Part shown: one piece after another, positions 21,235-44,675 of the stretch
How the letters are laid out: every line of letters begins with the position of its first letter
Position numbering within the stretch: position 1 is the stretch's first letter
NCBI GenBank assembly: GCA_049968255.1
Contig: JBMFRB010000001.1
Coordinates: 429,495 to 493,494 of the forward strand
Direction: 5' to 3'
DNA length: 64,000 bases
Origin: Candidatus Sumerlaeaceae bacterium
GTDB lineage: Bacteria > Sumerlaeota > Sumerlaeia > Sumerlaeales > Sumerlaeaceae
Position numbers and translations under genes: made by a program
Notes under the pieces: generated by a model
The model's input: only the letters and a program-made list of their open reading frames with translations
Databases searched by the model: none
Told to the model about the DNA's origin: nothing

Positions 21235-23808
21235 TTATTTTTTCTGCATGCGCTGGAGCTTTTCAATTTTGGCAACGACGTCTCGGTAACCGGCGTCAAC
21301 GTGGAAGATCCGCTTGAACGTTTGAAGAGCGGCAGCAATTTCCCCATCTTTTTCCATCAATTCGGCTGCGCGGTAAAGCAAGGCTTTGAGTTTTGCCGCT
21401 TCGTCAGAGCGGTCTTTCGGGGAGAGTTGGACGCGGCTGAGCATGTCGCGGGCATCGTCATAAAGCCCTTTGAAAGCTAAGACGTAGCCCAATTTCGCGG
21501 CGGCAACGTTGCTGGAATCTGGCGCAAGGGTTGCCTTCTGATACTCGACGATTGCGTCGTTGAGCTGCCCCAGATCATGATAGATATCGCCGAGTTCAAG
21601 ATGCACCAGTCCATCCTTTTCTGGATCGTTGGTGAGGGAATTTCGGAGCTCCTCGATGCGCGCCCGGCGCTCTTTTTCCTGGTAATTTTTGACCAGCTCC
21701 CTCACGGCAGGATCCCCCGGATCCAGTGCCTGAGCGCGCACAGCCAGTGCAAGTGCTTCGGAGAATTGCTTGCGCTTCGCTGCTAGCTGCGCTAACGTGA
21801 CAAGCAGGGGCTTGTTGCTTGAGTCAATTTTTAGCAATTCATAGCCCGCGTCTCGAGCGCGGTCTTCAAGGCCCAACGAAAGCGCGAGCTCAAATTCGAG
21901 GCGCAGCACGGTGGCATTTTTTTCGCCACCCGCGGCAACATAGCGATCTAGATAATTCAGTGCGCTCTCGTTACGGCCAGCTTCCGCGGCGTTCTGGGCA
22001 AGAAAGAGAAGAGACGGGAGGTGATGGGGATTTTCATGGAGGATCTTTTGGGCGCCTTCGAGCAATACGTGTGCACCAGCGATCGTTTCCTCCGAGAGTA
22101 TTTGATAGAGTTTGAACACTTCATCCCATTTGTGCTGGCGGAGGTACAAATCAGCAAGATAGGCCATGAGACGCGAAGTGTGCCCATAGCGCTCGACTAG
22201 CTTCTCGACCTCTCGCATCACGTGCTCGAGCAGTTCGGGGCGGCCATGAAGGAGTTCTTCTAACGCCACGACGACACGGTCTGCATTTCCGCGGGCAGTG
22301 AGGCGATCATAGAGCTGGAAACGCAGCTCAAGGTCGTCGGGAGTTTGCTCAACCTTGCGGGAAAGCTCTTCCAGCTCTTGGTCGAGCAAGAATTCGCGGA
22401 TACGATGCTGCAGGCTCGTGAGGCGGGCCCGTACCTCTGGAGAATTGTCCTCGGGAAGTTTTTCAGCGCGTTGCGCTTGCTTCTGGGCCTCTGGAATACG
22501 GCCCTGCTCGAAATAGCTATAAGCGAGAAGCCATCCGGCTTCCATCGAATGCTCCAAGGCCGGAGAGGAAGCAATAATTTGTTCGACTCGATCGTAGTTC
22601 GCGCGAGCAAAATGCTCGTTGGCGGCTTCCAGCCTTTCCTCGCGTGTGGCATCGCCGAGATCGATGAGGAAGTCGAGCTGAGCCAGAATCTCATCGAGGC
22701 GTCCTTGCCACCGCAAGATCTCGATGAGGCGGCGTCGGTAGCCCGTTTCATTGGGAAAGAGCTGGATGAGCTGCAAGAGGGACTCTTTCTCTAGCTCGAG
22801 CTCGTTAGTTCGGTGCGCCAGGTCGGCCAAAGCCTCGAGCAAGGAGCGGTCGCGCGGATGGTGGCGCAGGGCACGCAGGTATGCTTCTTTCGCTCTGGTG
22901 AAAGGCGGACCGTCGTGCTCATATTCCTTGCACAGGGCTTTGATTTCTTCAAAGGACCCGACTTCGAACGTCAACTCGCAAATGTGTTCGGCCCAGTGAT
23001 GACGCTCGTTAACGTGAAGCTTCTGCAATGCCTCAAGCGCCTTGCGTTTCTGTCCCGTCTTTTCCCACAGCGCGATCAGTTTGCGAAAGAGTGCTGTGGA
23101 AGGAGACAAATGATGGGCTTCCTCGTAGAAATCAGCAGCGCGTTTCAAGTCGCCCTGGCATTCCGCAAGCTGACCAAGCACATTGCAGAGGTCTGCATCA
23201 CGCTCCCCGTCTTCGTAGGCCTGCAGAAGGTAGCGATCGGCGCCCATGCATTTGCCCAATCGCGCAAGCGAGAGAGCGAGAATGTTCTCACCGATGCGAT
23301 GCGATGGACACAGCATAAGACCGATCTTCGCCCACCAATAAGCAATCGTTGCCGGTGCATTATCCAGAGCCTGGCGGGCAAGCTTGATGAAAAGACGCCC
23401 CAACACTCCTTCGGCCCAGACCCAGGCACTCGCTAAGGCAACGACGACAAAGGCGGCGATTCCAACGGCAACGACGTTGTCCAGGTTGACTTGCCAACGC
23501 CCAAGGAAATACCCGCCTAAGAACGAAAAATAACTCGTGACTAAAAGCCAGGTTCGCACGTGGGGGCGCTTAGGACGCATGGGATCGAGTCCCAGGGCAT
23601 AGGCAAGCGCAGAAACCGTCGTGCAACTAAAGAAGAGGGCGGCTGCCACGGGCCCTGCCAATTCGACCAATGAAGTGTAAAGATCATGGAGGACAAGTCC
23701 ATCGCTCCAGAGCACATAATTCAGCACAGCTCCTGCCACGTTGGCCACCATGGCGACAAGGGTGGCAAGTGTGAAAAGCAGGTCGCGTTTGCGATTCCCG
23801 TAAGTCAC
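21235..23808 (-). CDS. Membrane-anchored multi-TPR protein
   Basis: About four N-terminal TM helices, then many TPR motifs, ending ...DAGYRDVVAKIEKL. Confidence 0.8.
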   Translation of the reverse strand: MTYGNRKRDLLFTLATLVAMVANVAGAVLNYVLWSDGLVLHDLYTSLVELAGPVAAALFFSCTTVSALAYALGLDPMRPKRPHVRTWLLVTSYFSFLGGYFLGRWQVNLDNVVAVGIAAFVVVALASAWVWAEGVLGRLFIKLARQALDNAPATIAYWWAKIGLMLCPSHRIGENILALSLARLGKCMGADRYLLQAYEDGERDADLCNVLGQLAECQGDLKRAADFYEEAHHLSPSTALFRKLIALWEKTGQKRKALEALQKLHVNERHHWAEHICELTFEVGSFEEIKALCKEYEHDGPPFTRAKEAYLRALRHHPRDRSLLEALADLAHRTNELELEKESLLQLIQLFPNETGYRRRLIEILRWQGRLDEILAQLDFLIDLGDATREERLEAANEHFARANYDRVEQIIASSPALEHSMEAGWLLAYSYFEQGRIPEAQKQAQRAEKLPEDNSPEVRARLTSLQHRIREFLLDQELEELSRKVEQTPDDLELRFQLYDRLTARGNADRVVVALEELLHGRPELLEHVMREVEKLVERYGHTSRLMAYLADLYLRQHKWDEVFKLYQILSEETIAGAHVLLEGAQKILHENPHHLPSLLFLAQNAAEAGRNESALNYLDRYVAAGGEKNATVLRLEFELALSLGLEDRARDAGYELLKIDSSNKPLLVTLAQLAAKRKQFSEALALAVRAQALDPGDPAVRELVKNYQEKERRARIEELRNSLTNDPEKDGLVHLELGDIYHDLGQLNDAIVEYQKATLAPDSSNVAAAKLGYVLAFKGLYDDARDMLSRVQLSPKDRSDEAAKLKALLYRAAELMEKDGEIAAALQTFKRIFHVDAGYRDVVAKIEKLQRMQKK

Positions 23809-24491
23809 GTTTCCTCCCGGGGGATTCGCCCGTTGCTCACCGCTGATGAAAAGTCGCCTTCAAGCTTACACATGCTATCTTGTGAGTCACGGTGATAGAC
23901 GTAGGTGGGAAATTCAACCTTTTCAATGTGGAGAATGCGCTGGGCGCGCTGGAAAAGTTCGTAGTCGCAACCAAAATTGGGAGAGCGAAAACCACCGAGA
24001 GACACAAAAGCATCTTTTCTGATAAAGAATGTGCCGCCAACGACACAAGCGGAGAGATGGACCAGGCGCGTTGGGTCGTGAACATCGGGAACGTAAGCAC
24101 TGCCGCCCACCACAACGAATCCCCCGTGCACCATGTCCACGTGAGGATGATCTCGGACGAAGTTGAGGCGCAGCTCCAGGTGGGAAGGCAAGTATTCGTC
24201 GTCTGAGTCGAGGAAAGTGATCCAGCGTCCTGTAGCCAGGCGCGCCGCCCGATTACGGGCGCCCACGAGCCCGCGGTTTTCTTGGGAAAGCCAACGAATG
24301 CGTTTATCGCGCTGAGCAAAGTGGGCGAGGATGTGAGGAGTGCTGTCCTGCGAACCGTCGTCCACCACGATGAGTTCCCAGTGCTTGCAGGTTTGTTGCA
24401 GCACGGACTCGATAGCCCGGGACAGCAAGGGCGCACGGTTGTAGGTCGCAAGGAGGATAGAACACGCGGGCTCGGGATAACGCAGCTCCAT
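23805..24491 (-). CDS. Glycosyltransferase family 2
   Basis: SILLATYNR, WELIVVDDGS.D, NRG...ARN, FLDSDD; ATG at 24491. Confidence 0.9.
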   Translation of the reverse strand: MELRYPEPACSILLATYNRAPLLSRAIESVLQQTCKHWELIVVDDGSQDSTPHILAHFAQRDKRIRWLSQENRGLVGARNRAARLATGRWITFLDSDDEYLPSHLELRLNFVRDHPHVDMVHGGFVVVGGSAYVPDVHDPTRLVHLSACVVGGTFFIRKDAFVSLGGFRSPNFGCDYELFQRAQRILHIEKVEFPTYVYHRDSQDSMCKLEGDFSSAVSNGRIPREET

Positions 24492-24652
24492 ACAAGTGTC
24501 AGATCTTGGCATAGTTGATGCGCACTTGTCGAGTGGGATACGCTCTGGCGCGGGGTATTTTATCAACAACACTGAAAAAACTAAATTTACAGCATTTTCG
24601 GAAACCAAACATGGGAGGCGACTGTCTGATACAGAGCAAGGTCCACAGGGAG

Positions 24653-24859
24653 ATGACATACATGACTGCTCAGCAAATTGGCGGTTTGTGGATCATCGCG
24701 CTAGGGCTATTTGTGTTCGCAAGTTCCTTTGCTTTGCGACGCACAACCGCAAACGGCGATGGTGTCCTTTCTCTTGTTGGTTCTCCCCTGCTGACGTGGT
24801 TGACCCGAGTGCTTTCCGTGCTCCTGTGGGGATTGGGCGCGGCGACCTATTACCGTTGA
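24653..24859 (+). CDS. Small two-TM hypothetical protein
   Basis: GGGAG RBS then ATG; two hydrophobic helices; fills an otherwise empty gap. Confidence 0.5.
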   Translation: MTYMTAQQIGGLWIIALGLFVFASSFALRRTTANGDGVLSLVGSPLLTWLTRVLSVLLWGLGAATYYR

Positions 24860-24881
24860 TGACCGGCGTGATGCTCCACGT

Positions 24882-26570
24882 TTATTCGAACTTGGCCACG
24901 AGGATCGTGATGTCGTCGAACTGTTCCTCGGGGCCACGGAAGAGAAGCGTAGCCTCATAAAGCTCGTCGCGAAGTTCATCGGCCGAGAGGTGAAGATTTT
25001 CGCGCACGCTGCTCACAATACGATCAGTCCCAAACACCTGTTTCTGCGCATTGTGCGTGTCCGTGACACCATCGGTGAGCACGATGAGTGTGTCGCCGGG
25101 CTCGACGGTGACGGTTTCGGTCTCATACTCGATGAACTCCATAATTCCGAGAAAACAGCCGCCAGCGGTGAGCTGGCGGTAGGTGCCATTTGGCTTGAAA
25201 AGCAGAGGTGGTAGGTGCCCGGCGTTGGAATACTCGAACGTGCGGTGGGCGGGATCGTACACACCGAAGAACATGGTGACAAACATGTTATTCGAAGCGT
25301 CTTTGCACGTCCAAGAGTTCACCGCCGCCATGAGCTGGGTTAGTGGCAGATCGGGATGCACATGCGTTTGCATGCGAAGGCTAGCGCGAATTGTGGCAGT
25401 GAGAATGGCAGCGGGCATGCCCTTGCCGCTCACATCCGCAACGACGAGAGCCACACGCCCGTCAGAAAGCTCAAAATAATCATAGTAATCGCCGCCTACT
25501 TTTCGGGCGGGCACACTCAGGGCAGCGAAGGCAACACCCTTCACTTCAGGTGCTTTCTTGGGCAAGAGCGCCATTTGAATCGAACGGGCAAGTTCGAGTT
25601 CTTTCTCGAGTTTCTGGCGCTCGATCAGCTGCTGGGTGAGACGGGCATTCTCGATCGCAAGCGCTGCTTGAGCTGCAACCCCTTTCATGAGATCGAGATC
25701 CTCTTCGGTATAGTAAACTTCGCCCGGCACCTGAGAGTCGATGTAGATCACGCCTTCTGCGCCGCTCTTGGTCACAAGCGGAACACACATCGCAGAACGA
25801 ATGCGCCCGCGGATGATACTCTCATTTGCGGCAAATCGGACGTCGGACGGCGCATCGGAGACGAGAATGGCCACTTGCTCGGCCATGCACCGCTCCACAA
25901 TCCCGCGGCTGATATGAATTTCGTCGGAGGCCCCCTCGTGGACGCGCACCACGACGGGATCAAGTATTCCTTCTTCCGCGTCTTTAAGCAGAATGATGCC
26001 GCGGTGGGGAGTTGCCACCTCCCAGATGATGTCCATCAGCTTGTGGAGTAATTCGTTGAGATCCCAAATGGAGCGGATGGAGTCCGTCACGCGGTAGAGT
26101 ACGCGAAGTCGCTCGAACGGATCATTGAGCTGGTCGCGGCGGAAGGGCTCCTGCACGGCAAGTGGCTGCTGGCTTGCGCTTTCGATAAATAGCTGGCCAG
26201 GCGCACGAAGCTCACCATTAGATTCGAGTCTGACCGAGCCCGTGGATTTGGTACGTGGGTCTGGAGCTTCGCCCTCGTCCGGATCCAACTCGAAAAGCAG
26301 AAGACAATCGCCAATCTGGATTCGATCACCACTGTGGAGCTGGATTCGGCCAACAAGTGGCTTATTGTTGACTAGCGTGCCGTTCTTGCTGCCAAGATCT
26401 TCGATCACAAACCCGTGGCGCTGAGCCTGGATGACGGCGTGATGGCGACTTACCCGCTTGTCAATAATCTGCACATCGCACGAGGCACTTCGGCCAAGTG
26501 TGACCGCGCTCGACCCCAGGGGGTAAATCATCCCTGCGTCATGACCTTTCTCAATGATTAGGCGAGCCAT
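24882..26570 (-). CDS. FHA-GAF-SpoIIE (PP2C-type) protein phosphatase
   Basis: FHA: GR...VSRHHA...DLGSKNGT.VN; GAF: IRSAMCVPL...GVIYID; PP2C: VGGDYYD, ADVSGKG, NAGH, TDGVTD, DDIT. Confidence 0.92.
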   Translation of the reverse strand: MARLIIEKGHDAGMIYPLGSSAVTLGRSASCDVQIIDKRVSRHHAVIQAQRHGFVIEDLGSKNGTLVNNKPLVGRIQLHSGDRIQIGDCLLLFELDPDEGEAPDPRTKSTGSVRLESNGELRAPGQLFIESASQQPLAVQEPFRRDQLNDPFERLRVLYRVTDSIRSIWDLNELLHKLMDIIWEVATPHRGIILLKDAEEGILDPVVVRVHEGASDEIHISRGIVERCMAEQVAILVSDAPSDVRFAANESIIRGRIRSAMCVPLVTKSGAEGVIYIDSQVPGEVYYTEEDLDLMKGVAAQAALAIENARLTQQLIERQKLEKELELARSIQMALLPKKAPEVKGVAFAALSVPARKVGGDYYDYFELSDGRVALVVADVSGKGMPAAILTATIRASLRMQTHVHPDLPLTQLMAAVNSWTCKDASNNMFVTMFFGVYDPAHRTFEYSNAGHLPPLLFKPNGTYRQLTAGGCFLGIMEFIEYETETVTVEPGDTLIVLTDGVTDTHNAQKQVFGTDRIVSSVRENLHLSADELRDELYEATLLFRGPEEQFDDITILVAKFE

Positions 26571-26693
26571 CTTTCTGACTGTTTCTAGTAAAGAGAGAGT
26601 TCCTCTGGCAAAATAAAGAAGAAAAAATGGCCGGAAAAATTCAAAGTCGCTCGACCCAGTAATGAAGCAGTGCGCTCATGGCTACGCACACGG

Positions 26694-27293
26694 CTAATTG
26701 AAAGGGTGATCGCTGGTTCGCCAGATGTCACCGTTGCTGACTGTTCCATTGGTGGGATCGTAAATCATGTAGTTATAGTCTGGATCCTGACCTGTGAAAA
26801 TTTCCCAAGAAAACCCAGGATAGGCTTTGATGGGAACGGAATCCTCGTCCAGATCAGGACCATTGGAGCTGATGGCGTAACGGTGAGGCGTTTGCAGGGG
26901 TGTGGCGCCCATTTTGTAAGCGAAGTGCCGCGGTCCCCAATCGATGTGGTTGTCTAGGTCCCAACGCTGCTCGAAGGGGTCGCGCGGAACATGTGTGAGA
27001 TAAGCAATTGGAGTCGTCAGACACTCAAAGCGTTGCCAGCGGGGCGTAAGGAACGTTTCCGGATATCGTCCGTTATCGGTGTGGTAGACTTCCAAGGCGA
27101 CGGCGATGGTCCGGATGTCGTTTTTTGCCAGCGCAACTTTGCTGCGAATCTGCGCTTCGAGAAAATTGGGGAGCGCGGTGGCGGCAAGTACGGAAAGGAT
27201 GGCCACGACCACCAGCAGCTCGACCAAAGTCAGGGCTCGGCTCCTCGGCGAGTAGATGCTAGGGCAACTTACGGATCGAGTCAAATGGGTCAT
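26694..27293 (-). CDS. Type IV pilin/pseudopilin-like protein
   Basis: Class III signal RA|LTLVELLVVVAILSVLA...PNFLEAQIRSKV; C-terminal YDPTNGTVSNGDIWR. Confidence 0.85.
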   Translation of the reverse strand: MTHLTRSVSCPSIYSPRSRALTLVELLVVVAILSVLAATALPNFLEAQIRSKVALAKNDIRTIAVALEVYHTDNGRYPETFLTPRWQRFECLTTPIAYLTHVPRDPFEQRWDLDNHIDWGPRHFAYKMGATPLQTPHRYAISSNGPDLDEDSVPIKAYPGFSWEIFTGQDPDYNYMIYDPTNGTVSNGDIWRTSDHPFN

Positions 27294-27868
27294 GGGGCGG
27301 TTTTCGTTGAAGTGGTTGTCTGGGCTGCCTGGCGACGCATTCGTGATTGCTCACGAATAGCTTTCGAGGCGCGGGCCGCGTAGTCGGCCTCATCACCGTA
27401 GTACTTTTTCAGTTTCTGCGCGTTAGCCTTCTGCTTTTCAACTCGCGCTCTTTGCTCTTCGGCGCGTTTAGCTGCGAGTTCTTTGGCTCTGCTTGTGAGC
27501 TGCTCGCGTTGCTGTGGAGTCAGCACGCGGTTGACTCGAAATCGCAAGGTGCGAGGTTCAGTCGTCTCTTTCGCAATCAGCTCGATTTTCTGTTTTTGCT
27601 CGTCGGTAAGATTGAGTTCCTTGACGAGCTGCAGAAATGCGGGAGGACGCTGCGATGCAGAACGAACTGAGCGAGGCTGAGTTGGACGCTGAACAGGGTT
27701 AGTTCGATTCGTCGCGGCCGCTCGTGTACGAGATGGTACACGATACTGCACGTATTTGTATCCAATGTAAGCCCAAATGCTCCCGATCACGAACAAAAGG
27801 AAAAGAACCTTCCACGAGACGTGCAACCGCGGCGCCTCTTTCAGAACCCTTGTATCCAAGCGTGCCAT
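27290..27868 (-). CDS. Membrane-anchored protein with Spy/CpxP-like LTxxQ motifs
   Basis: N-terminal TM; LNLTDEQKQKI and VLTPQQREQL; stop overlaps the pilin ATG. Confidence 0.6.
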   Translation of the reverse strand: MARLDTRVLKEAPRLHVSWKVLFLLFVIGSIWAYIGYKYVQYRVPSRTRAAATNRTNPVQRPTQPRSVRSASQRPPAFLQLVKELNLTDEQKQKIELIAKETTEPRTLRFRVNRVLTPQQREQLTSRAKELAAKRAEEQRARVEKQKANAQKLKKYYGDEADYAARASKAIREQSRMRRQAAQTTTSTKTAP

Positions 27869-28064
27869 GCGCAACTCCCCCCGTTGAAAAATAATGAGAG
27901 TGGGAGACCAATTCGAGATCCACCTTTTGCTGCTCTACCCCTCTCCATCGTAATTGGTCAGCAAGGAATGGGCCAAAAGAAAGCGAAGGAAATGAGAAGC
28001 TGACAAAAAAGATATGGAGGGCAAGCTTTCCGCAAAACAGACCTTCGAAGCAGCCAAAAGTGTG

Positions 28065-29792
28065 TCATGGCCGAACATGATAGAGATAGAACTCGAATGC
28101 GGAGTCGCACGAACGACTGTTTTCAGGGATGTCGATTTGCTGCAGTTTTTCTGCAAGGCTTGAGCTCCCAAGGCGAAGCGGACGTTTGGCCACATAAAGA
28201 AAGCCGGTCGAGGAAAGTTGTTTGGCCAGTTCGTATGACTTTGCAATTTTGGTTCCGTCCCAGCCAGGGAGAATGACTCGGCTATAAAACAGCCGCGGGA
28301 ACATCGTCGCCAACCAGCTCTGTTCGGTGACGATGGGTTCACCAGGGTCCGTTGCCGCCAGGAATTTTTCAAGGCGACTGATTTGGCGGTATTGGTGAAC
28401 AAGCCGATCGAGATAAACGACGGAATCGGCGAGACCGAGCAGGACCAGGAAAGCGACCAACGCCTTCAGCGCACGATGATAGGGACCTTGGCCACCAGAC
28501 CACAATTCCCTCATGACTGCGAATGCCGCCAGCACCAATCCAGGATAAATCGGTAGCAGAAGTCGCGGACCGAAATTGAGGCCAACGGCCGAGCTTGGCA
28601 CGCTCAGCGCTAATGTCAGAGCCAAGAAAAGAAGAGAGCAGACAACGACGGAGCGCAGGTTGAGAGACTCAAATCTCCCATGGCCGCTTCGCGGTGCGTC
28701 CCACAGGGTCAGCCCGAAAAACACGATTGGTGCCGATGCAACCATGGCGTTAACAAAATATTGTGATACTATCGGTTGCTTTGTATCCCATGCGAAAAAG
28801 CGAGTAACAATCGCGCCGAGGGTGCCCAGGGCAACAAGAAGGACTCTGTGCTGAAGCGACGATGCGGAGCGAACAAACGCCAGGCATCCTAACGCGAGCA
28901 ACAATCCTGCGTCGGCCAGAGGCGCCCCCTGAACAAAGGCCAAATAACGATAGGCGACCCATCCCCTTGATGCGAGAGACCAAGTGTACTCCCAAGACTT
29001 ACCACTCCCCGTGCTCGCACGGAAGAAAAGCGGAACGCCGATGACGGCATGATTCACCACCATGAGTGCGATCGCGCCCGCGGCAAACACGCCCGCTGAC
29101 ACTGCCACGAGACGCCAAGCAGGGCGCAAAAGTAAAACTGCGAGAAAACAGCAAATCGCCCAGAGGAGATACTCCTCACGCATGACAAACGCCAGCCACA
29201 GCAAAACGCCCGCGCCAACAGCGCGTGGCAGTGAGGAGCGACGGGTGGCGTCGAGGAGATAGACTTGTCCCCACACCGCAAAAGCTAGCGCGGGAATAAT
29301 GTCCCAAAAGATATAAACGTACGGGAGAATGGGCGTCGCAAAAATTGCAACAGAGGCAGGAATGGTCGGCCGCTCGAGGCCGCAAAGCCGAGACAACCAG
29401 ATGATGCCCCAAAACAGCAAGATCCCAGTGAAAAGCGGCAATACCCGTAAGCCGCATTGACCGAAGAGCGCATAAAATGGGGCGGTCGCATAGCTAAACC
29501 ACGGTGGGTACTGGGCAAACAGTCGGCCACCATGGACAAACGTCTGAATAAGGCCGAAGGGAACTAGCTCAAAGTTCGGATCGAGATGCTGCAAGGGATA
29601 ATCAAGCCAGAACCCCCCAAAATGATGACGTCCCACGATATTGATGAGTTGGAGGAGGCGCAAGCCGCAATCCACAACCCAAACGCCTTCGCATGGAATC
29701 AGGAAACCAATTGCAATGAGCAAGGCGCTGAGAGCACCTGCAGCCCAAATATTTCTGTCAGGAATTGGGCCCAGCTTGAACATCAGGGTCAT
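28065..29792 (-). CDS. Polytopic membrane protein, putative GT-C-fold glycosyltransferase
   Basis: Many TM helices, first loop with acidic D (VVDCGLRLLQ) and YPP, later GPRLLLP, C-terminal soluble domain. Confidence 0.6.
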   Translation of the reverse strand: MTLMFKLGPIPDRNIWAAGALSALLIAIGFLIPCEGVWVVDCGLRLLQLINIVGRHHFGGFWLDYPLQHLDPNFELVPFGLIQTFVHGGRLFAQYPPWFSYATAPFYALFGQCGLRVLPLFTGILLFWGIIWLSRLCGLERPTIPASVAIFATPILPYVYIFWDIIPALAFAVWGQVYLLDATRRSSLPRAVGAGVLLWLAFVMREEYLLWAICCFLAVLLLRPAWRLVAVSAGVFAAGAIALMVVNHAVIGVPLFFRASTGSGKSWEYTWSLASRGWVAYRYLAFVQGAPLADAGLLLALGCLAFVRSASSLQHRVLLVALGTLGAIVTRFFAWDTKQPIVSQYFVNAMVASAPIVFFGLTLWDAPRSGHGRFESLNLRSVVVCSLLFLALTLALSVPSSAVGLNFGPRLLLPIYPGLVLAAFAVMRELWSGGQGPYHRALKALVAFLVLLGLADSVVYLDRLVHQYRQISRLEKFLAATDPGEPIVTEQSWLATMFPRLFYSRVILPGWDGTKIAKSYELAKQLSSTGFLYVAKRPLRLGSSSLAEKLQQIDIPENSRSCDSAFEFYLYHVRP

Positions 29793-30918
29793 CCTCTCGC
29801 GAGAGAGCTGCAGCTGAATCGGTTTGCTTGACCAGACGCATGATTACGAATCCCGCGTCCCAGGCGCATGCGTGCAAGTATGGGTCGCGCCATCGCAAAG
29901 CGACAACTTCGCCCCCAACAAGCATGGAATCTTCGAGTTGAGGAATCGCAGGATCGGCGAGGTTATAGAGCTGAATGCCGTTCTCATTGTTTGCAACTGC
30001 AAACAGGTCATGCGGGAGAAAGCAGATATCCTGGGCATAATCTGGAAACTTGTTAACGAGGGAAAGTAGCTCCACGGGGGGCGATGTTTCGGCAATTTCA
30101 GTACGGGGCATCGAGATGGCATCTGTGCGAAGAATCGCAAATCCGCCATTGCGCAAGGCGGCCGCAAACAGGGGCGGCGCCGCTTGCACCGCTACGCAAT
30201 AACCGGGGAGCGATATTCGCTGCAAAGGTTGCAGCAGCGCCGGATCTGCGACGCGGAACATCTCTAGTCCGCCCTCATCATTATTCGCCAGTAGAGCAAG
30301 ATGCCCCGCTAGGCAGACATCTGTCGCATAGTCGGTGCCCAGGGTGAATGAGCTTACGACGTTTGGCGCAAGAGGGTTTGTGACATCGAGGATCCGGAGT
30401 CCTCCACCTCCGCAGGCCACAGCAGCATACGCCTTGTCTGCGTGATAAAAAAGGTGAATTTTGGTGGCAATCCCCTCGAGAGGAAGCGCGGCATATGTTG
30501 AAAGATTGTCCGCGCGGAGCGTGAGAAATCCGCGGAACCGATCGGCCACAAAGAGATAACGCCCATCCGAACTTTCCACGATGTGCAATGGTTGCAAGCT
30601 GGCCGGCGGCACATGACGTAAGAGGCGTGGAGCGGCGGGACTTGAGATGTCGACTTCGCTCAGACCTTGAAAATTCTGCGCAACGAACGCACGATTGCCA
30701 ACCAAAGCCACAGCTCGTGCGCGCTTGAGAGGAAGCTGGCCAATTTTCTCCAACTTCCAGAGCTCTTTGCGCTGCAGGCGAGACAACCGCTGCGGATGAC
30801 GAGTCTCTGCGCATGAGGTCACCAAGAGTTCTGCAACAAGCAGAAGAGTTGACAGCGCAAGGCCAGAGAATTTCTGAATAGGCACGAACATAAGCGAATG
30901 GTGAAACATGCGTACCAA
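29758..30918 (-). CDS. LVIVD-repeat beta-propeller protein, possibly a lipoprotein
   Basis: GLSEVDISSP, GLRILDVTNP, GIQLYNLADP repeats; LVTSC lipobox-like site. Start uncertain. Confidence 0.75.
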   Translation of the reverse strand: MVRMFHHSLMFVPIQKFSGLALSTLLLVAELLVTSCAETRHPQRLSRLQRKELWKLEKIGQLPLKRARAVALVGNRAFVAQNFQGLSEVDISSPAAPRLLRHVPPASLQPLHIVESSDGRYLFVADRFRGFLTLRADNLSTYAALPLEGIATKIHLFYHADKAYAAVACGGGGLRILDVTNPLAPNVVSSFTLGTDYATDVCLAGHLALLANNDEGGLEMFRVADPALLQPLQRISLPGYCVAVQAAPPLFAAALRNGGFAILRTDAISMPRTEIAETSPPVELLSLVNKFPDYAQDICFLPHDLFAVANNENGIQLYNLADPAIPQLEDSMLVGGEVVALRWRDPYLHACAWDAGFVIMRLVKQTDSAAALSREDDPDVQAGPNS

Positions 30919-31387
30919 TGACGCAATTGCAATACTTCGCTCCGGCCCAAGACAGCCGAAGTGGTTGGTCCTCGGCTTGAGCTGGCTGGTGCCCGGCTAT
31001 GGATTTTTTGTCCACGGACTTCGGCGTCGTGCAGTGGTTCTCTTCTTGGCGATCGAGGGGACCTTTGCCGTGGGCTGTTTTCTGAGAGGTGGCGTTTTTC
31101 TGCCAGAATTCCGCTGGGGGCATGAGGGGTTTAATATTGTTACTTTGCTAACATTTTTTACGCAGATTTTCAATGGTGGCGGCGCACTCCTGAGCCTTGT
31201 TCCTGAGATCCTAGGAAGCCGCTGGGCTATCTTGCCATATGATGAGGCTTCCTGCTGGGCTGATTTGGGGTCTTTTTACATGCTGGTGGCAGGTGGACTG
31301 AATTATTTTGTCCTCATGAGCACGTTCGACTACTTCTACGGGAAAAAGCAGGCTGTTCAAGCCGATGCGATGGAAGGCGAGTCATGA
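30908..31387 (+). CDS. Membrane protein resembling the DUF6677 family
   Basis: LSWLVPGYG...RR.AV.LF and DLG.FY.LVAG.LN motifs, recalled from that family. Confidence 0.6.
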   Translation: MRTNDAIAILRSGPRQPKWLVLGLSWLVPGYGFFVHGLRRRAVVLFLAIEGTFAVGCFLRGGVFLPEFRWGHEGFNIVTLLTFFTQIFNGGGALLSLVPEILGSRWAILPYDEASCWADLGSFYMLVAGGLNYFVLMSTFDYFYGKKQAVQADAMEGES

Positions 31388-31675: not shown

Positions 31676-32353
31676 ATGAAGAAAGGCTTTACCCTAATCG
31701 AGCTGTTGATCGTGGTGGCAATCATTGCGATCCTGGCAGCTATCGCGGTGCCAAACTTCCTCGAGGCCCAGGTACGCTCGAAGGTCTCTCGTGCGAAGTC
31801 GGATCAGCGCTCGCTGGCAACGGCCATTGAGGCGTACTTTGTCGATAACAACCTGTATCCGGCTGCAGCGCGCGAGGGATCAGGCACTTGTGCTGCCCCG
31901 AACGCAACAGTTCCGGTCAATCCGGCGGGATCTGGCAACTTCAATAAATATGCCAATCCATCGAACCCCAACACGCAGCTGCGCAACGTGTTCAGCTTTG
32001 CAGTGAAGGGAACCACGGCGATAGGCCTGCTGACCACCCCGATTGGCTACATCACCAGCTATCCGGCCGATCCGTTCACGGATACGAAGGGCGCAACATT
32101 CTGCTACTTCGCGAATGCGAATGGGTGGATCCTGTGGAGCCCCGGTCCCGACACGGACGAGGCCCAGGGAACAAACCTGGGGACCAACGCCAACCCGGGG
32201 ACGAACGCTGTTGAGACCTTGTATGACGTTTCGCAGTCTCAGCCAAGCGTTACCCTCGTGGCAGGCATCGGCGGATCTCAGACCAAGGCGTTCACCTATG
32301 ACCCAACCAACGGAACGGTCAGCCCGGGTGACGTTTATCGCGTGAAGCAGTAA
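31676..32353 (+). CDS. Type IV pilin-like protein, candidate major pilin
   Basis: MKKG|FTLIELLIVVAIIAILAAIAVPNF canonical class III signal; AAGGAGG RBS; own terminator; C-terminal YDPTNGTVSPGDVYR. Confidence 0.9.
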   Translation: MKKGFTLIELLIVVAIIAILAAIAVPNFLEAQVRSKVSRAKSDQRSLATAIEAYFVDNNLYPAAAREGSGTCAAPNATVPVNPAGSGNFNKYANPSNPNTQLRNVFSFAVKGTTAIGLLTTPIGYITSYPADPFTDTKGATFCYFANANGWILWSPGPDTDEAQGTNLGTNANPGTNAVETLYDVSQSQPSVTLVAGIGGSQTKAFTYDPTNGTVSPGDVYRVKQ

Positions 32354-39012: not shown

Positions 39013-39041
39013 AAAGAATCTCTGACGGCTAGAGATTCTTT
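39013..39041. repeat. Perfect 11-bp inverted repeat
   Basis: AAAGAATCTCT-GACGGCT-AGAGATTCTTT. Confidence 0.7.
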
Positions 39042-39122
39042 AGGTTCAAAAATCCATGCTTGCGGCCGATCGAGAAATTGTAAAAACTTATACAGCATCA
39101 TTCACCGGGGACATCAAAATTT

Positions 39123-39716: not shown

Positions 39717-39833
39717 AATCATGGTGGCCGGGCAACTCAGAGAAGGCAAGCTAGTAGACCGCAGCGTCCTTTCTTGCTTTTGTCTGTAGCTGGCGCCAGA
39801 ATTGTTTGACACACACGAAAGGGAGGAGAAGCT

Positions 39834-42800
39834 ATGCAATTCGCGGTGTGGGTATTGATTGCCGTTCTCATGTTTGTAGGGGGACAAACTCGCGGCGAGG
39901 ATTTTCAACTGGCCACAAAAGTTACTGGTCTAAATTCTCCCAACGAGCCGGTACTTTACGACGTCGACGCTGACGGTCATTTCGAGGTTCTGCTCACGGG
40001 AGTCAATGGCGAGGTCGCTGCATATCGTTTGCCCTCACTGTCAATCCTTTGGAAGACAAAGCTCCCTGCGAAAGGACTCACTTCTGCAGCAATCGGTGAT
40101 TTGCTGGGAACGGGCGAGGGTATCGCTGTTCTTGGCTCAGGCGACGGGAATGTTTTTTTCGTCCGAGCTGGCAGCGGAGAAATTCTTGCAACCTTGCCTC
40201 TGGGCAAAGCGGTGTCGGTGGCTCCAACTATTCTCCCCGCGCCGGATGAAACCACGGCATCTGCGGAAAGCGCAGTCGTTTGCGACGAGTTTGGTGAAGT
40301 GCATCTCGTCAAACTCGAGGGCCAAACGCCTTGGGTTGTTTTTTCCAGCCCGAACACACTAGAAAGTCCCACGGGGGAACAGATCTCGCTCGGTCGTGTC
40401 AACTACCCCGCCAGCATCGCTGATATTGACGGCGATCATAAACCGGAAATCGTCGTTGGGACGGCTCTGGGGAAAGTTGTGGCGATCAGCTCGACAAATC
40501 CCAGGACACGTTATGTGTGGCACGGCCCCCAAGGGCTCTCGATTATCACAAACGTGGCAGCAGGGGATTTTTTCGGACTAGGTCGCGATGCGCTGGTCTT
40601 TGGAACGAACGCAGGCAACCTCTTCGCTATCGCGTTTGATCCCGCCACGCACACCCTGAAAACTGCTGTTGGTCAACTCAAGCTGTCGGGGCCTGCGAAC
40701 GGTCACATTCTCGCTGCCGATTTCGATGGTGACCACTTGCCCGACGTCATCGCGGGTTGCGACAACGCGGTCCTTAGCTTCGCCCCGGCTGTAGGATTTG
40801 TGCCGCGCGGTCAGCCCTATGGGGCGAACGCTCCGCCTTTCAGCCCTGTCGCGCTTATTGCGCTCGCCGACAAAACGTACCGCGCTCTCGTTATCGACGG
40901 GAAAGGAATTCTTCATCTCATCGATCCAATCAAGACTTCACCTTCGGGGTCGCTTGCGCTCGACACTGTCGCCAATAGTACAATTGTCGGAGGCAACTTG
41001 ACCAACGCGGGATTTCCCGAGCTCGTCTATCTGACAAAAAACAGAGCGCGACTGACGTATGTGGGACTAACGGAGCGCAAGGTCTCGTCCGAAATTTCAC
41101 CAGTGTTGGCGATGGGCAGCAATTTCCAGCGCAGCGGGGAGATCGGTACGAGACCCCTTGCACAGTTGAAAGCAAACCGCGAACGTTTCGCCAAGCTTTT
41201 AGCCTCACAAGTAGCCGAAGCAAAGCAGCTTTACGACATGGGCCGCTATGCCGAGTGCCGAGCGACGCTGGCGCGGGTTTTGCAGGCCGTGGCGGATCAC
41301 CGTGAAGCGATATCTCTCGAACGTAAGGCAGCATTCCGCCAGCATTGGCTCCTGTATGTCGCTCTGATGCTCCTCGTGGCGGGTACGGCCGGAATCGGAG
41401 TTTGGGCGGTCATGAGGCTCCGCCTACACCGAAGTGCCATTGAGAATGTGGAAAAGCTGATAGAAATCCAAGCCTACCCGCAGGCAGCCGCGCTGCTTCA
41501 GGAACTGCGGCGGAAAGACCCCAAGAATGCGACGTTTTTGCGCCTTCTCGCGAAGGTCTATCTTTTGTGGGAACGCATTGGGACTGACACGATTCGCGTT
41601 TTAGAAGAGGCGCACCGCACCTTCCCTGACGACTCGGGGATTACGCTCGCGCTAGCCAAAGCTTACGCCGAAACGGGCGTGGAAAACGAGCAAGCCCTCG
41701 AGCTCTACCAAATCGCCCTGGCAGTCATGGAAGGCGAACGCGGGGACATCGCCTATCGGGCGGCGAAGATTTTTGAGACCAAGGGAAACGTCGAACAAGC
41801 GATTCGGCATTACAGGCTGGCTGAAAAAGAAGGATGCACCGCCCCCGATTTGCAGGCACGGCTCGTGGAACTTTACCTCGCTACTCATCAGTTCAACGAG
41901 AAAACCCTGCCAGCGTTCGAAAGCATGTTTTCGGAGTACACTCAGGACGCGCGGTTCCTTGAAGGGCTGTGCCGCGCCCAGGCGGCTGCGCGACGTGTGG
42001 ACGACCGCGCGCGTGCTGCCGCATCGAGCTTGCTCGCTCTCAAGCCAGACTCCGTCGTCGCCCTTCGGCAGCTAGCCAAATGCGAACTTCAGGCGGGTCG
42101 CCACGAAAAGGCGAAGAACTTCGCGGAGCGAGCATTTGCCCTAGAGCCAAATGATGACGAAACGGCCTTGGTGTTAGCGTTCTGTTATTCCGCCTTGGAA
42201 TTTTTCGAACCCAAGGCGCGCGAGATTTACAGACGCGCTCTTGCCTTGGATCCGCAAAACCCCACTTTCCTCCGGTGCGCAGCACTGACTGATCACACAA
42301 CGTTGGGTAGGCCTCTTGATGAAACTGATTTCGACATTCTTAAGCGCGCCGTCCAGGCTAACCCTAACGACGTGGTCCTGTTGCGTACCTACGCCGAAGA
42401 GTGCCGAAAACGAACTGATTTCACCAGTGCCCGTGAAGCGCTCGAGAGACTCTTGGAACTCGGAGGCCAGAGCTCGGCAGTGTATTGCAGTTTGGCAGAG
42501 GTGTATGCCTTACAGGGCGAATTCAGCTCTAAAGCCATTCCTGCCTATGAGGAAGCCCTGGCCGCTGACCCTGAGAACGCAACCTACTTGGAGGCATTGG
42601 CCCGCAGTTACATAGTTGCAGGACGCAAAGATCCCGCCGCAATTCAGTTGATCGAAAAGGCGCTCAAAAAAGTGCCTCGTGCCATTGAGCTGGGGGTGTA
42701 CCTTGCAAAAAATTATCTAGAGACAGAACGTTATGAGGACGCACTGAAACTTGCTCGTTGGCTACTAGAGCGCGATAAAGAAAATGAGGAAATTCAGAAG

Positions 42801-44675
42801 CTCTTCGCCCAAGCCTCATTCGCTTCTAACCGACTCGATGAAGCGATAGAGCAGTATCAGCACGTCTTGGCCAAACACCCTGATGATTCCGAAGCCTTGG
42901 TGAACATTGCGCTCGCGTTTGCGCGAAAACACCGCACGGATGCAGAAGCCGCGCAGCGCTACACGGCCGCACTGGCGGTGTCACCCGCCCAACCATTGAT
43001 CAGGTTCATGCTGGCGCGCCATCACGCCATGGCGGGACGTTATGGCGCAGCCTTGGATCAATTGGCCGAAATCCTGCGTATATCGAACGAACATCAGCCG
43101 CGACTTTTAGACGAAGTGAGGCTCTATCTGGCCCATGCGCCGGATCGCGCCGACCTGCGCTGGTTCTGCGCCACCCTCCTCACTGAAATGGAACACATGG
43201 ACGAAGCATGCGAGGAGATTGAAAACCTTCTCGCGCTCGAGCCCGGCGAGACAAAAGCAATCCTTCAGGCCTACGATCGCATTTTGGGCAAAGACCCTCT
43301 CAACGTCACAGCTCTCGTCGGTAAGGCACGCCTGTTGCGGGCGATGGGAAATCACGAGGCGGCCAAGCCGCTGCTGGAGCAAGCTCACCGCATTTCACCA
43401 AAGAATGCCGATGCGCGCAACGAACTAAAAGAACTCTACGAGGAAATTCTCCAAGAAAAGGACGAAACGGAGATCCGTTTCGAACTCGCCAAGCTTCATT
43501 TTGAAGAAGGCGCCTACGACAGAGCAATCGCCCTGTTCCAGAAAACAGTTCTAGATTTCCGCTTCGAGAACGAATCCATCAAGATGCTGGCGCGCTGCTT
43601 CATGGAAAAAGGCATGCTCGAGTTCGCATTCCAGGAGCTGCGCAAACTCCTGATTGATGACGAGGTCAAGGAACTGCTCTACACGCTTGCCCAGCGCTAC
43701 GAAGCGAAAAATGATTTCGTCGGCGCCAAGCAGGTTTACCGCGTGCTTTTCGCCGCCGATATGAACTACCGCGACGTGAAACATCGTTTCGAGATGCTCG
43801 CTGGCGCCACGAGTGACCCCCTGGCTCTCGATAGGTCTGAGCTTATCACCCAACTGGGCGAACGAGCACGAAGCCGCTACGAATTGGTGGAAGAGCTGGG
43901 TCGCGGAGCAATGGGGGTGGTTTACCGGGCTCGCGACAATGAGCTTGAAGAAATCGTCGCGCTCAAAATTTTGCCTGAGAATTTGTCGCAAAATCCCGAG
44001 GCACTTCATCGTTTCCGCGCGGAAGCACGCGCTGCAAGGCGACTTTCGCACCCAAACATTGTACGCATCCACGACATCGGCGAAGAAAAGGGGCGTAAAT
44101 ACATCTCGATGGAGTTTGTCCGGGGAACCGACCTGAAACGCTATTTGCGGCAGAAGGGCAAGTTGAGCATTGAAGAAGCGATCTCGATCATTCTGCCCTT
44201 ATGCGATGCTCTTGACTACGCGCACAGCAACTCGATCGTGCACCGCGACATCAAGCCAGCCAATATTATGATCACGGAACAGGGCGTTGCAAAACTTAGC
44301 GATTTTGGCATCGCCAAGGTCTTGGAACTGACAAGCGAAACCGTGACCGGTGCAATCATTGGGACACCCCTCTACATGAGTCCGGAGCAGGTGCAAGGCC
44401 AACCGGTCGATCACCGCGCCGACATTTACTCGCTGGGCATCACGTTTTATGAGCTGCTCGCCGGCAAACCGCCCTTCACGGAGGGCGACATTGCGTATCA
44501 GCACTGCCGTGTGCCGGCACGCCCGATTCCGGGTGTTCCAGAAGAGCTCAACGTTATCATCTTGAAATGCCTGGAAAAAGACAAAGAGAAGCGATGGGCC
44601 AGCGCGGCAGAACTCGCCCAAGCCCTGCGCTCGTGGTTCGAAAAATGGCAGCAGAGCAAACCGCTTGTGTCGTAG
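39834..44675 (+). CDS. Receptor-type Hanks Ser/Thr kinase: signal peptide, FG-GAP propeller, TM, TPR array, C-terminal kinase
   Basis: DVDADG, DIDGDH and DFDGDH motifs; TM WLLYVALMLLVAGTAGIGVWAV; TPRs; LGRGAMGVVY, VALK, HRDIKPAN, DFGIA, GTPLYMSPEQ. Confidence 0.92.
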   Translation: MQFAVWVLIAVLMFVGGQTRGEDFQLATKVTGLNSPNEPVLYDVDADGHFEVLLTGVNGEVAAYRLPSLSILWKTKLPAKGLTSAAIGDLLGTGEGIAVLGSGDGNVFFVRAGSGEILATLPLGKAVSVAPTILPAPDETTASAESAVVCDEFGEVHLVKLEGQTPWVVFSSPNTLESPTGEQISLGRVNYPASIADIDGDHKPEIVVGTALGKVVAISSTNPRTRYVWHGPQGLSIITNVAAGDFFGLGRDALVFGTNAGNLFAIAFDPATHTLKTAVGQLKLSGPANGHILAADFDGDHLPDVIAGCDNAVLSFAPAVGFVPRGQPYGANAPPFSPVALIALADKTYRALVIDGKGILHLIDPIKTSPSGSLALDTVANSTIVGGNLTNAGFPELVYLTKNRARLTYVGLTERKVSSEISPVLAMGSNFQRSGEIGTRPLAQLKANRERFAKLLASQVAEAKQLYDMGRYAECRATLARVLQAVADHREAISLERKAAFRQHWLLYVALMLLVAGTAGIGVWAVMRLRLHRSAIENVEKLIEIQAYPQAAALLQELRRKDPKNATFLRLLAKVYLLWERIGTDTIRVLEEAHRTFPDDSGITLALAKAYAETGVENEQALELYQIALAVMEGERGDIAYRAAKIFETKGNVEQAIRHYRLAEKEGCTAPDLQARLVELYLATHQFNEKTLPAFESMFSEYTQDARFLEGLCRAQAAARRVDDRARAAASSLLALKPDSVVALRQLAKCELQAGRHEKAKNFAERAFALEPNDDETALVLAFCYSALEFFEPKAREIYRRALALDPQNPTFLRCAALTDHTTLGRPLDETDFDILKRAVQANPNDVVLLRTYAEECRKRTDFTSAREALERLLELGGQSSAVYCSLAEVYALQGEFSSKAIPAYEEALAADPENATYLEALARSYIVAGRKDPAAIQLIEKALKKVPRAIELGVYLAKNYLETERYEDALKLARWLLERDKENEEIQKLFAQASFASNRLDEAIEQYQHVLAKHPDDSEALVNIALAFARKHRTDAEAAQRYTAALAVSPAQPLIRFMLARHHAMAGRYGAALDQLAEILRISNEHQPRLLDEVRLYLAHAPDRADLRWFCATLLTEMEHMDEACEEIENLLALEPGETKAILQAYDRILGKDPLNVTALVGKARLLRAMGNHEAAKPLLEQAHRISPKNADARNELKELYEEILQEKDETEIRFELAKLHFEEGAYDRAIALFQKTVLDFRFENESIKMLARCFMEKGMLEFAFQELRKLLIDDEVKELLYTLAQRYEAKNDFVGAKQVYRVLFAADMNYRDVKHRFEMLAGATSDPLALDRSELITQLGERARSRYELVEELGRGAMGVVYRARDNELEEIVALKILPENLSQNPEALHRFRAEARAARRLSHPNIVRIHDIGEEKGRKYISMEFVRGTDLKRYLRQKGKLSIEEAISIILPLCDALDYAHSNSIVHRDIKPANIMITEQGVAKLSDFGIAKVLELTSETVTGAIIGTPLYMSPEQVQGQPVDHRADIYSLGITFYELLAGKPPFTEGDIAYQHCRVPARPIPGVPEELNVIILKCLEKDKEKRWASAAELAQALRSWFEKWQQSKPLVS

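What the first reader, a model, noticed from the sequence alone, without database searches (positions are those of the whole stretch)
21250..43799. Two distant proteins share a ~110-aa 'YRDV' TPR module, a possible SgmX-like GTPase-effector domain linking the kinase to pilus control
Seen: the C-terminus of the 857-aa TPR protein (~21250-21610; LELGDIYHDLGQLNDAIVEYQK...KGLYDDA...KALLYRAAELME...FKRIFHVDAGYRDVVAKIEKL) aligns by eye with the segment just before the kinase domain (43458-43799; FELAKLHFEEGAYDRAIALFQK...KGMLEFA...KELLYTLAQRYE...YRVLFAADMNYRDVKHRFEML). Known: the last three TPRs of Myxococcus SgmX bind MglA-GTP to activate type IV pili. From memory they have a similar D..YRDV end, which I have not verified. 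Inference: one small-GTPase input could dock on both a membrane scaffold and a receptor kinase. With PilT and two pilins in the same window, this may be an undescribed polarity/pilus phospho-circuit.
Basis: partly seen in the sequence, partly recalled or inferred. Interest (0 to 1): 0.8.

Follow-up and report, generated by a model that had tools for sequence, protein, structure and literature searches.

The report
SgmX-type TPR module on kinases
Two distant proteins of this uncultured Sumerlaeota bacterium do share a specific 120-residue TPR module of the kind that ends the Myxococcus pilus regulator SgmX, but the module is kept in many relatives that have no MglA GTPase, so it is more likely a general docking module than a dedicated MglA sensor.

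Summary
The end of the 857-aa membrane TPR protein and the segment just before the kinase domain of the 1613-aa receptor kinase are the best-matching pair of TPR stretches between the two proteins. Profile tests make the match specific (hhalign Prob 98.7, E 2.5e-16, single hit). The genome holds six copies. Five sit directly before all five C-terminal Ser/Thr kinase domains. One ends the TPR protein.

The SgmX lead is right at domain level. The modules map in register onto the C-terminal part of NCBI's SgmX profile and onto the C-terminal triad of SgmX-like proteins, which ends "FRDV/FREV". The genome also encodes a clear MglA, about 12 kb beyond the window, and a longer MglA paralogue.

The functional inference is not supported. 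All 19 MglA-less Sumerlaeota genomes tested keep the module, in both kinase and kinase-less forms. In another group of phyla, 17 of 18 module-bearing genomes lack MglA. No link to mglA or conserved link to pilus genes was found.

Best reading: a conserved partner-docking or regulatory TPR triad, homologous to SgmX TPR12-14, with an unknown ligand. MglA docking remains possible (about 12%). The scan had not noted this before on other DNA.

The parts
21235..23808 (-). P0001: 857-aa membrane-anchored all-TPR protein. It is conserved at about the same length across Sumerlaeota.
   Evidence: Translation. Only TPR families in Pfam. Three hydrophobic segments at aa 10-28, 47-65 and 112-130. 16 further proteins of 839-897 aa. 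Collinear profile alignment with SgmX-like proteins: 655 columns, Prob 98.5.
21238..21621 (-). C-terminal YRDV module of P0001 (aa 730-857): three TPRs and a capping helix. It is the most conserved part of the family.
   Evidence: SgmX 896-1014, E 3.8e-7; 64.1 bits with an HMM built from other phyla; invariant columns cluster at aa 738-849.
21277..21288 (-). Y-R-D-V (aa 841-844) at the start of the capping helix of P0001.
   Evidence: This corresponds to the usual TPR junction 'DPxYxxA' (my reading of the hits listed).
39834..44675 (+). P0002: 1613-aa receptor Ser/Thr kinase. Order of parts: signal/TM, FG-GAP ectodomain, TM, TPR array, YRDV module, linker, kinase.
39891..41357 (+). Predicted extracytoplasmic FG-GAP-type region (aa 20-508).
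   Evidence: Pfam FG-GAP_3 and FG-GAP. It lies between hydrophobic segments 1-19 and 509-527. The topology is inferred.
41358..41414 (+). Transmembrane segment (aa 509-527).
   Evidence: Kyte-Doolittle mean 2.15 over 19 aa.
41451..43454 (+). Generic cytoplasmic TPR array (aa 540-1207).
   Evidence: Pfam TPR_19, TPR_14, TPR_16 and others. These stretches score at most 11.5 bits with the module HMM, against 64.9 bits for the module.
43455..43811 (+). Juxta-kinase YRDV module of P0002 (aa 1208-1326).
   Evidence: 27% identical end to end to the C-terminal triad of an SgmX-like protein, E 2e-10; Prob 98.8. The AF2 model shows seven helices at high pLDDT.
43767..43778 (+). Y-R-D-V (aa 1312-1315) at the start of the cap helix.
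   Evidence: Residues 123-126 of the modelled segment, cap helix H126-136.
43812..43877 (+). Linker between the module and the kinase ('GATSDPLALDRSELITQLGERARSR'). Its first half is predicted to be flexible.
   Evidence: pLDDT below 50 for model residues 136-148 (aa 1325-1337), pTM 0.62. The 'G[AS]TSDP' motif is kept in some lineages only.
43878..44612 (+). Hanks-type Ser/Thr protein kinase domain (aa 1349-1593).
   Evidence: Pfam Pkinase E 3.3e-60. HRD motif 144 aa from the end.

Best explanation
The shared segment is a distinct, ancient subtype of TPR domain: three repeats plus a capping helix that begins [YF]-R-[DE]-V. It is homologous to the C-terminal triad of SgmX-like proteins. In Sumerlaeota it has two uses. 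(a) It is the element just before the catalytic domain, joined by a flexible linker, in every kinase of this genome whose kinase domain is C-terminal. Those five kinases have otherwise unrelated sensor parts: an FG-GAP receptor, an Hsp70 fusion, repeat/propeller proteins and TM-repeat proteins. (b) It is the extreme C-terminus of a conserved, membrane-anchored, SgmX-like TPR scaffold (P0001). I infer that it is a protein-docking or regulatory module. It would either bind a partner or peptide that brings the kinase to its activator or substrate, or fold back to hold the protein inactive until a ligand releases it, as has been proposed for SgmX. P0001 would offer the same docking surface without a kinase, acting as scaffold or competitor. 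The ligand is unknown. MglA-GTP may be one ligand in species that have MglA, but it cannot be the conserved one. Shown: the existence, specificity, copy number and architecture of the module, its homology to the SgmX C-terminal type, and its independence from MglA across genomes. Inferred: docking or regulation, and any shared ligand.
For: Specificity. Six copies, aligned through the cap. The regex caught 9 ORFs with an HRD motif, out of 11 kinases over the Pfam cut-off. Five have the HRD 140-162 aa from the end and all five carry the module; the other four have none. Deep conservation of both forms: the P0001 family forms one clade and the window-kinase orthologues one clade in a 61-row module tree. 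The invariant columns of the P0001 family cluster in the module. The cap is kept in kinase orthologues of 14 genomes (2 of the 16 fetched stretches were dropped because my script picked the wrong frame). The cassette is abundant: the best 120 of 7,618 hits cover at least 78% of module plus kinase (119 of them at least 93%), and every hit with a phylum-level name is Sumerlaeota. Homology to the SgmX C-terminal type. Flexible tether to the kinase. Independence from MglA.
Against: No binding partner was identified and no experiment exists. In PDB the module profile matches only consensus and generic TPRs, over profile positions 5-103, so most of its length is ordinary TPR. 'YRDV' is a variant of the common TPR junction. 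The external modules used for the HMM were picked with a profile made from this genome's own copies, which is partly circular. Their match to the SgmX profile is independent of that. Three of the six modules (L002, L003, L004) give no SgmX hit at E <= 1. MglA-positive genomes carry more copies (mean 4.9 in 9 genomes) than MglA-negative ones (mean 2.7 in 19). This is confounded by phylogeny but leaves some room for a link. The AF2 model gives no contact information, so autoinhibition is untested.
Confidence: 0.6

Rival explanations
1. One reading: in this organism the module is an MglA-GTP effector domain, as in SgmX TPR12-14. One small GTPase would then dock on the membrane scaffold P0001 and on the receptor kinases, coupling polarity or pilus control to Ser/Thr phosphorylation.
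For: The module is homologous to the SgmX C-terminal triad. That triad alone pulls down MglA-GTP and not MglA-GDP (Mercier 2020, passages). This genome has MglA, a second longer MglA paralogue, and a weak Roadblock-like gene next to mglA (Pfam E 0.0064, below the cut-off). There is a precedent for an MglA-kinase contact: MasK interacts with MglA in yeast two-hybrid (PMC3546991, passages citing earlier work). MglA-positive Sumerlaeota carry more module copies.
Against: The module is present in 19 of 19 MglA-less Sumerlaeota genomes, some 95-98% complete and one a single contig. These include orthologues of both window proteins with an intact cap. In the other phyla 17 of 18 module-bearing genomes have no MglA at E <= 1e-20, and all 17 of those also have none at E <= 1e-6. 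mglA lies about 12 kb beyond the window end, about 31 kb from the kinase gene and 52 kb from P0001, among unrelated genes. The P0001 gene cluster is conserved only within the same family.
Confidence: 0.12
2. The module serves the kinase itself. It would be a juxta-kinase dimerisation or autoinhibition element that sets trans-autophosphorylation. P0001 would be a kinase-less relative that heterodimerises with the kinases, as decoy or anchor.
For: There is a strict association with C-terminal kinase domains, 5 of 5 against 0 of 4. The spacing is fixed and the helix before the kinase is conserved. In this genome and one same-family genome P0001 sits in a gene cluster with an FHA-GAF-PP2C phosphatase, which points to phospho-Thr signalling.
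Against: The same module ends hundreds of all-TPR proteins with no kinase in phyla where no cassette was seen. The linker is predicted to be disordered, and the model's pTM of 0.62 gives no confident packing on the kinase. The PP2C linkage is not conserved in three other families. Neither homo- nor heterodimer prediction was run.
Confidence: 0.15
3. There is no specific function. The segment is the structurally constrained end-cap of a TPR solenoid, and its recurrence reflects paralogy of a kinase cassette plus common descent of TPR ends.
For: PDB hits are generic TPRs only. YRDV resembles the ordinary 'DPxYxxA' junction, and similar strings occur inside giant TPR proteins. One generic C-terminal TPR end in the genome scores 38.9 bits, within the range of the weakest true copies.
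Against: The module is the most conserved part of the P0001 family. It is kept through the Sumerlaeota radiation in two separate protein families. It gives a single, in-register profile hit among many TPRs. Other TPR triads of the same kinase score at most 11.5 bits. In SgmX the homologous triad has a demonstrated ligand.
Confidence: 0.13

Closest known systems
SgmX of Myxococcus xanthus, C-terminal TPR12-14 (the MglA-GTP-binding, autoinhibitory domain); NCBIfam NF052243
   Same: Three TPRs and a cap at the end of a long TPR protein. There are in-register profile matches to SgmX positions about 892-1014. SgmX-like proteins end the triad with FRDV/FREV. The P0001 family aligns collinearly with SgmX-like proteins.
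   Different: No SgmX orthologue is present: the best match in the genome is 37 bits against a cut-off of 1800. P0001 has N-terminal membrane segments. In five proteins the module precedes a kinase. The module persists without MglA. MglA binding is untested here.
MasK, the MglA-interacting protein kinase of M. xanthus
   Same: A membrane-associated protein kinase functionally tied to MglA and type IV pili (PMC3546991, passages).
   Different: The paper has no mention of TPR or tetratricopeptide (0 occurrences of either term). No MasK sequence was available for comparison. masK lies next to mglBA, whereas here mglA is unlinked.
Bdellovibrio Bd2492/Bd2490 (SgmX1/SgmX2)
   Same: TPR proteins related to SgmX in an organism that has MglA.
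   Different: [quoted passage not shown] The window modules resemble the C-terminal part.
TPR-containing Hanks kinases such as mycobacterial PknG (Pfam PknG_TPR)
   Same: A Ser/Thr kinase combined with a TPR domain. P0002 gives a weak PknG_TPR hit at aa 947-1103 (E 1.9e-5, below the cut-off).
   Different: In PknG the TPR follows the kinase (recalled, not checked here). Here the kinase is C-terminal, and the weak hit lies in the generic TPR array, not in the module.

Membership tests
SgmX (NCBIfam NF052243, equivalog_domain, cut-off 1800 bits) | Full-length match above the curated cut-off | tested here: not met
   P0001 scores 24.2 bits. The best place in the genome scores 37.1 bits.
SgmX (NCBIfam NF052243) | C-terminal TPR triad of the TPR12-14 type | tested here: met
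   The P0001 module maps to SgmX 896-1014 with E 3.8e-7 as its top family. Two kinase modules hit the same positions at E 0.024 and 0.003, and three of six give no hit. hhalign to the C-terminal triad of SgmX-like proteins gives Prob 98.8. The sequence of M. xanthus SgmX itself was never seen.
SgmX (functional definition) | Binds MglA-GTP through the C-terminal triad | not testable with these tools
   This needs a pull-down or ITC. It is known for SgmX from Mercier 2020.
SgmX (functional definition) | Occurs together with MglA | tested here: not met
   The module is present in 19 of 19 MglA-less Sumerlaeota genomes. In other phyla 17 of 18 module-bearing genomes lack MglA. This genome itself has MglA.
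SgmX (functional definition) | N-terminal TPRs that activate type IV pili, and genetic linkage to pilus function | tested here: inconclusive
   The P0001 family aligns collinearly with SgmX-like proteins at 20% identity. Pilin-like genes lie upstream in this genome and in one same-family genome only.
Hanks-type Ser/Thr protein kinase (Pfam PF00069) | Pkinase domain above the cut-off, with an HRD catalytic loop | tested here: met
   E 3.3e-60, 204 bits, aa 1349-1593. HRDxKPxN motif.
Tetratricopeptide repeat (Pfam TPR clan) | Matches to TPR profiles and an all-helical hairpin fold | tested here: met
   The AF2 model shows seven helices.
MglA family small GTPase (the genome's gene, outside the window) | Full-length similarity to solved MglA | tested here: met
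   199 aa, E 6e-62 to 6h17 over residues 1-196, and 5.8e-54 to Thermus MglA 3t12.
MglB (Roadblock/LC7 GAP) | Roadblock domain above the Pfam cut-off | tested here: not met
   The gene next to mglA scores 16.6 bits against a cut-off of 23. The genome search gave 0 at E <= 0.001. No PDB relative was found.

The most novel reading that the evidence does not exclude
In MglA-bearing Sumerlaeota the SgmX-type triad is a GTPase-effector socket built into receptor Ser/Thr kinases. MglA-GTP, or its long paralogue, would dock on the juxta-kinase module of five kinases and on the membrane scaffold P0001, giving a direct small-GTPase-to-Hanks-kinase polarity circuit. MglA-less lineages would keep the module for an older ligand.
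Probability: 0.12. Interest if true: 0.8.

Novelty: new variant of a known kind. Interest (0 to 1): 0.42.

Why it matters
The only functionally defined member of this module type is SgmX TPR12-14, the MglA-GTP receptor that switches on type IV pili in Myxococcus. This work shows three things about the triad: it belongs to a much wider family, it occurs in phyla without MglA, and it was recruited as the element next to the catalytic domain of a whole set of Sumerlaeota kinases. Together these change how the SgmX domain should be read. MglA binding is probably a lineage-specific use of an older docking or autoinhibitory module. They also give a concrete handle, a 120-residue domain with a conserved surface, for finding what controls these otherwise unstudied kinases. 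I found no paper in the held library on Sumerlaeota kinases or on MglA-effector TPRs fused to kinases.

Tried and rejected
1. Complex prediction of the genome's MglA (15-row alignment) with GTP and the P0001 module (aa 725-857, 17-row alignment) gave no verdict: score 0.07 against a mark of 0.32, controls not run. A first job that also held Mg failed uncounted.
2. The global representative search with the six-copy profile was swamped by generic TPR proteins (311,274 hits at E <= 0.001). It was useful only for picking out full-length C-terminal copies.
3. The PDB profile search returned only consensus and generic TPRs and no SgmX structure.
With 5 sequences its patterns came from the generic N-terminal half, so only about the first 23 of 80 loci are true modules. 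No Myxococcus record appeared, and I never obtained M. xanthus SgmX itself.
5. Synteny as evidence for a phospho-circuit was rejected. The PP2C-GT2-P0001-693aa-response regulator order is found in one same-family genome and not in three other families.
6. Reading the higher module count in MglA-positive genomes as co-occurrence was rejected, because it follows phylogeny.
8. The 'YRDV' string alone is not diagnostic: it occurs in 17 ORFs of the genome, and only 4 of those are in the TPR module.
Full report
What is there. The window lies in a 3.12-Mb, 31-contig genome (95.75% complete) at C1:429495-493494. Named relatives of its proteins are all Candidatus Sumerlaeota, which agrees with earlier notes on this genome.

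P0001 (window 21235-23808, minus strand, 857 aa) has three N-terminal hydrophobic segments followed only by TPR-family matches.

P0002 (39834-44675, plus strand, 1613 aa) has these parts in order:
- a signal/TM segment
- an FG-GAP-type region
- a TM segment at aa 509-527
- a long TPR array
- a Pkinase domain at aa 1349-1593 (E 3.3e-60)

The observation. A generic TPR HSP follows closely at 36.2 bits. Two further tests separate the pair from generic TPR likeness.
- In a Smith-Waterman scan of 6,035 window pairs across both TPR regions, the module pair is first at score 100. The 6,011 other pairs have mean 43.7, sd 10.1 and maximum 81.
- hhalign of the kinase-cassette family (19 sequences) against the full-length P0001 family (17 sequences) returns a single hit, module to module, Prob 98.7, E 2.5e-16, 131 columns running through YRDV.

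More than two copies. The genome contains six copies:
- the two in the window
- C5 (1124 aa), ending the module with YRDV
- C8 (873 aa), YRDV
- C3 (1169 aa), an Hsp70-TPR-kinase fusion, SYRDA
- C2 (889 aa), NYEDV

The genome has 11 kinases above the Pfam cut-off, and my HRD-motif regex caught nine of them. Five have the kinase at the C-terminus and all five carry the module just upstream. The four with an N-terminal or central kinase do not. The unit is therefore a cassette of module, linker and kinase joined to unrelated sensor parts, plus one kinase-less protein (P0001) that ends with the module.

An AF2 model of P0002 aa 1190-1613 has mean pLDDT 85.6 and pTM 0.62. It shows the module as seven helices, with YRDV at the start of the last (capping) helix. 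A low-confidence linker follows (aa 1325-1337), then the kinase.

Relation to SgmX. The literature part of the finding is correct. SgmX has 14 TPRs, and TPR12-14 alone pulls down MglA-GTP but not MglA-GDP (Mercier 2020, passages). No SgmX structure is in PDB by sequence search.

NCBIfam holds an SgmX profile, NF052243, of 1065 positions.
- The P0001 module matches positions 896-1014 as its best family (E 3.8e-7).
- Two kinase modules match the same positions weakly (0.024 and 0.003).
- Three modules give no match at E <= 1.
- In the whole genome only YRDV modules map to SgmX 891-1040. All other TPR hits map to the N-terminal or middle parts. No orthologue exists: the best match is 37 bits against a cut-off of 1800.

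Full-length copies of the module also end long all-TPR proteins found by the global search. For 5 of 6 of them the SgmX profile at 892-1014/1020 is the top family (four at E 1e-12 to 1.3e-14, one at 1.1e-6).

SgmX-like proteins of 643-883 aa from another phylum have N-termini that score 147-295 bits on SgmX positions 1-458. They carry the same triad at their C-terminus, ending 'EMEKDFRDVQERLAGL', 'NDSEFREVKQRIAEL' or 'MDKTFREVSSKVDAL'.
- Both window modules align with one of them end to end (27% identity, E 2e-10 each).
- The kinase-cassette profile hits only that triad in the full-length SgmX-like alignment (Prob 98.8, E 8.3e-17).
- The P0001 family aligns collinearly with them over 655 columns (Prob 98.5).

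I never saw M. xanthus SgmX itself.

MglA. The genome does encode MglA. It is a 199-aa protein at C1:505309-505905, about 12 kb past the window end, with E 6e-62 to M. xanthus MglA over its full length. The next gene is at best a very divergent Roadblock protein (16.6 bits, below the cut-off). A second, 354-aa MglA paralogue lies on C9. The neighbours of mglA are sugar-modifying and redox enzymes, with no TPR, kinase or pilus gene among them.

The test that decides the interpretation. MglA was found in 53 of 75 Sumerlaeota genomes. Whole families lack it (f8 0 of 7, f16 0 of 7).

I searched for the module in 28 of these 75 genomes: all 19 of the MglA-negative genomes I selected, and 9 MglA-positive ones.
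- All 28 have it, with 1-6 copies each.
- Orthologues of the window kinase in MglA-less lineages keep the cap, for example 'DITYRDVKGKLE'.
- P0001-type kinase-less ends, with a stop 118-135 aa after the module start, were found in 13 of 13 MglA-less genomes examined. A fourteenth locus was a kinase type.

Outside the phylum, true C-terminal modules occur mainly in MAGs labelled Vulcanimicrobiota, Xenobia or UBP9, and Omnitrophota.
- Of 18 such genomes, 1 has MglA at E <= 1e-20.
- The other 17, together with three near-complete MglA-less Sumerlaeota genomes, have none even at E <= 1e-6 (0 of 20).
- The same query did find MglA in other genomes.

In a tree of 61 modules, the P0001 type is one clade (83/92) and the window-kinase orthologues are one clade (95/92). 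The Vulcanimicrobiota and SgmX-like modules group together (99/90). Both Sumerlaeota uses are therefore old and separately maintained.

Counter-points. MglA-positive genomes have more copies (mean 4.9 against 2.7), but this follows family boundaries. The external modules were chosen with a profile of this genome's copies, so the ranking is partly circular.

Pilus and phospho-circuit context. A PilT-like ATPase (4847-5968) and pilin-like genes (26694-27293, 31676-32353) are in the window. The kinase gene, however, is flanked by an FMN reductase and an APS kinase.

P0001 lies in a minus-strand run with the following order:
- pilin-like genes
- FHA-GAF-PP2C phosphatase
- GT2 glycosyltransferase
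- P0001
- a 693-aa protein
- a double-receiver response regulator

That order is kept in one genome of the same family, but not around P0001 orthologues of three other families. It suggests a local tie to phospho-Thr signalling, but it is not a conserved system.

Conclusion. The segment is a real, specific, ancient TPR triad of the SgmX C-terminal type. In Sumerlaeota it was built into a kinase cassette and into a membrane scaffold. The most likely role is docking of a partner or autoinhibition, with an unknown ligand (0.6). Dedicated MglA-GTP docking is not excluded for this MglA-bearing species, but the phyletic pattern makes it unlikely as the conserved function (0.12). A kinase-intrinsic dimerisation or inhibition role (0.15) and a purely structural cap (0.13) remain open.

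Literature searches found nothing on Sumerlaeota kinases, nor on MglA-effector TPRs fused to kinases, in the held library. MasK is the known precedent for an MglA-kinase contact. I did not open any supplements.

Noticed in passing
G000:C3:171851-175360 (locus L003), outside the window: A 1169-aa protein joins a complete Hsp70/DnaK-like N-terminal part, a low-complexity linker, a TPR region with the module (SYRDA) and a C-terminal Ser/Thr kinase. An Hsp70-TPR-kinase fusion is unusual.
   Followed up: partly
G000:C9:88101-89165 (locus L145:602-1666, minus strand), outside the window: A second MglA-family GTPase of 354 aa: an MglA domain plus a C-terminal extension of about 160 aa with no Pfam match. 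A long form of 350-490 aa is found in many Sumerlaeota genomes beside the 200-aa form.
   Followed up: partly
G000:C1:504795-505340 (locus L006:951-1487, minus strand), outside the window: The 178-aa gene overlapping the end of mglA has only a sub-threshold Roadblock/LC7 hit (16.6 bits) and no PDB relative. It may be a very divergent MglB, or something else.
   Followed up: partly
window 24882-26570 (-): FHA-GAF-SpoIIE(PP2C) phosphatase, two genes upstream of P0001 on the same strand. It is conserved next to P0001 only within the same family.
   Followed up: partly
window 19097-21178 (-): A 693-aa protein directly downstream of P0001, with hydrophobic segments and no Pfam match. The protein-atlas nearest clusters are TPR proteins at score 0.87, which is a lead only.
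   Followed up: partly
window 18021-19022 (-): A response regulator with two receiver domains and no output domain. By eye, both keep the usual acidic pocket and the Asp, Thr/Ser and Lys positions.
   Followed up: no
window 26694-31123 (-) and 31676-32353 (+): A cluster of pilin-like or pseudopilin genes (N_methyl, T2SSG) with large proteins of unknown family, one of them carrying LVIVD repeats. A PilT-like T2SSE ATPase lies far away at 4847-5968.
   Followed up: no
window 56142-63406 (-): Three radical-SAM genes, one with a SPASM domain and two with B12-binding domains, lie close together. This may be a peptide- or lipid-modification cluster.
   Followed up: no
G000:C1:94863-101342, outside the window: A 2607-aa TPR protein holds the genome's strongest matches to the N-terminal part of the SgmX profile (about 35-37 bits) but has no YRDV module.
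   Followed up: no
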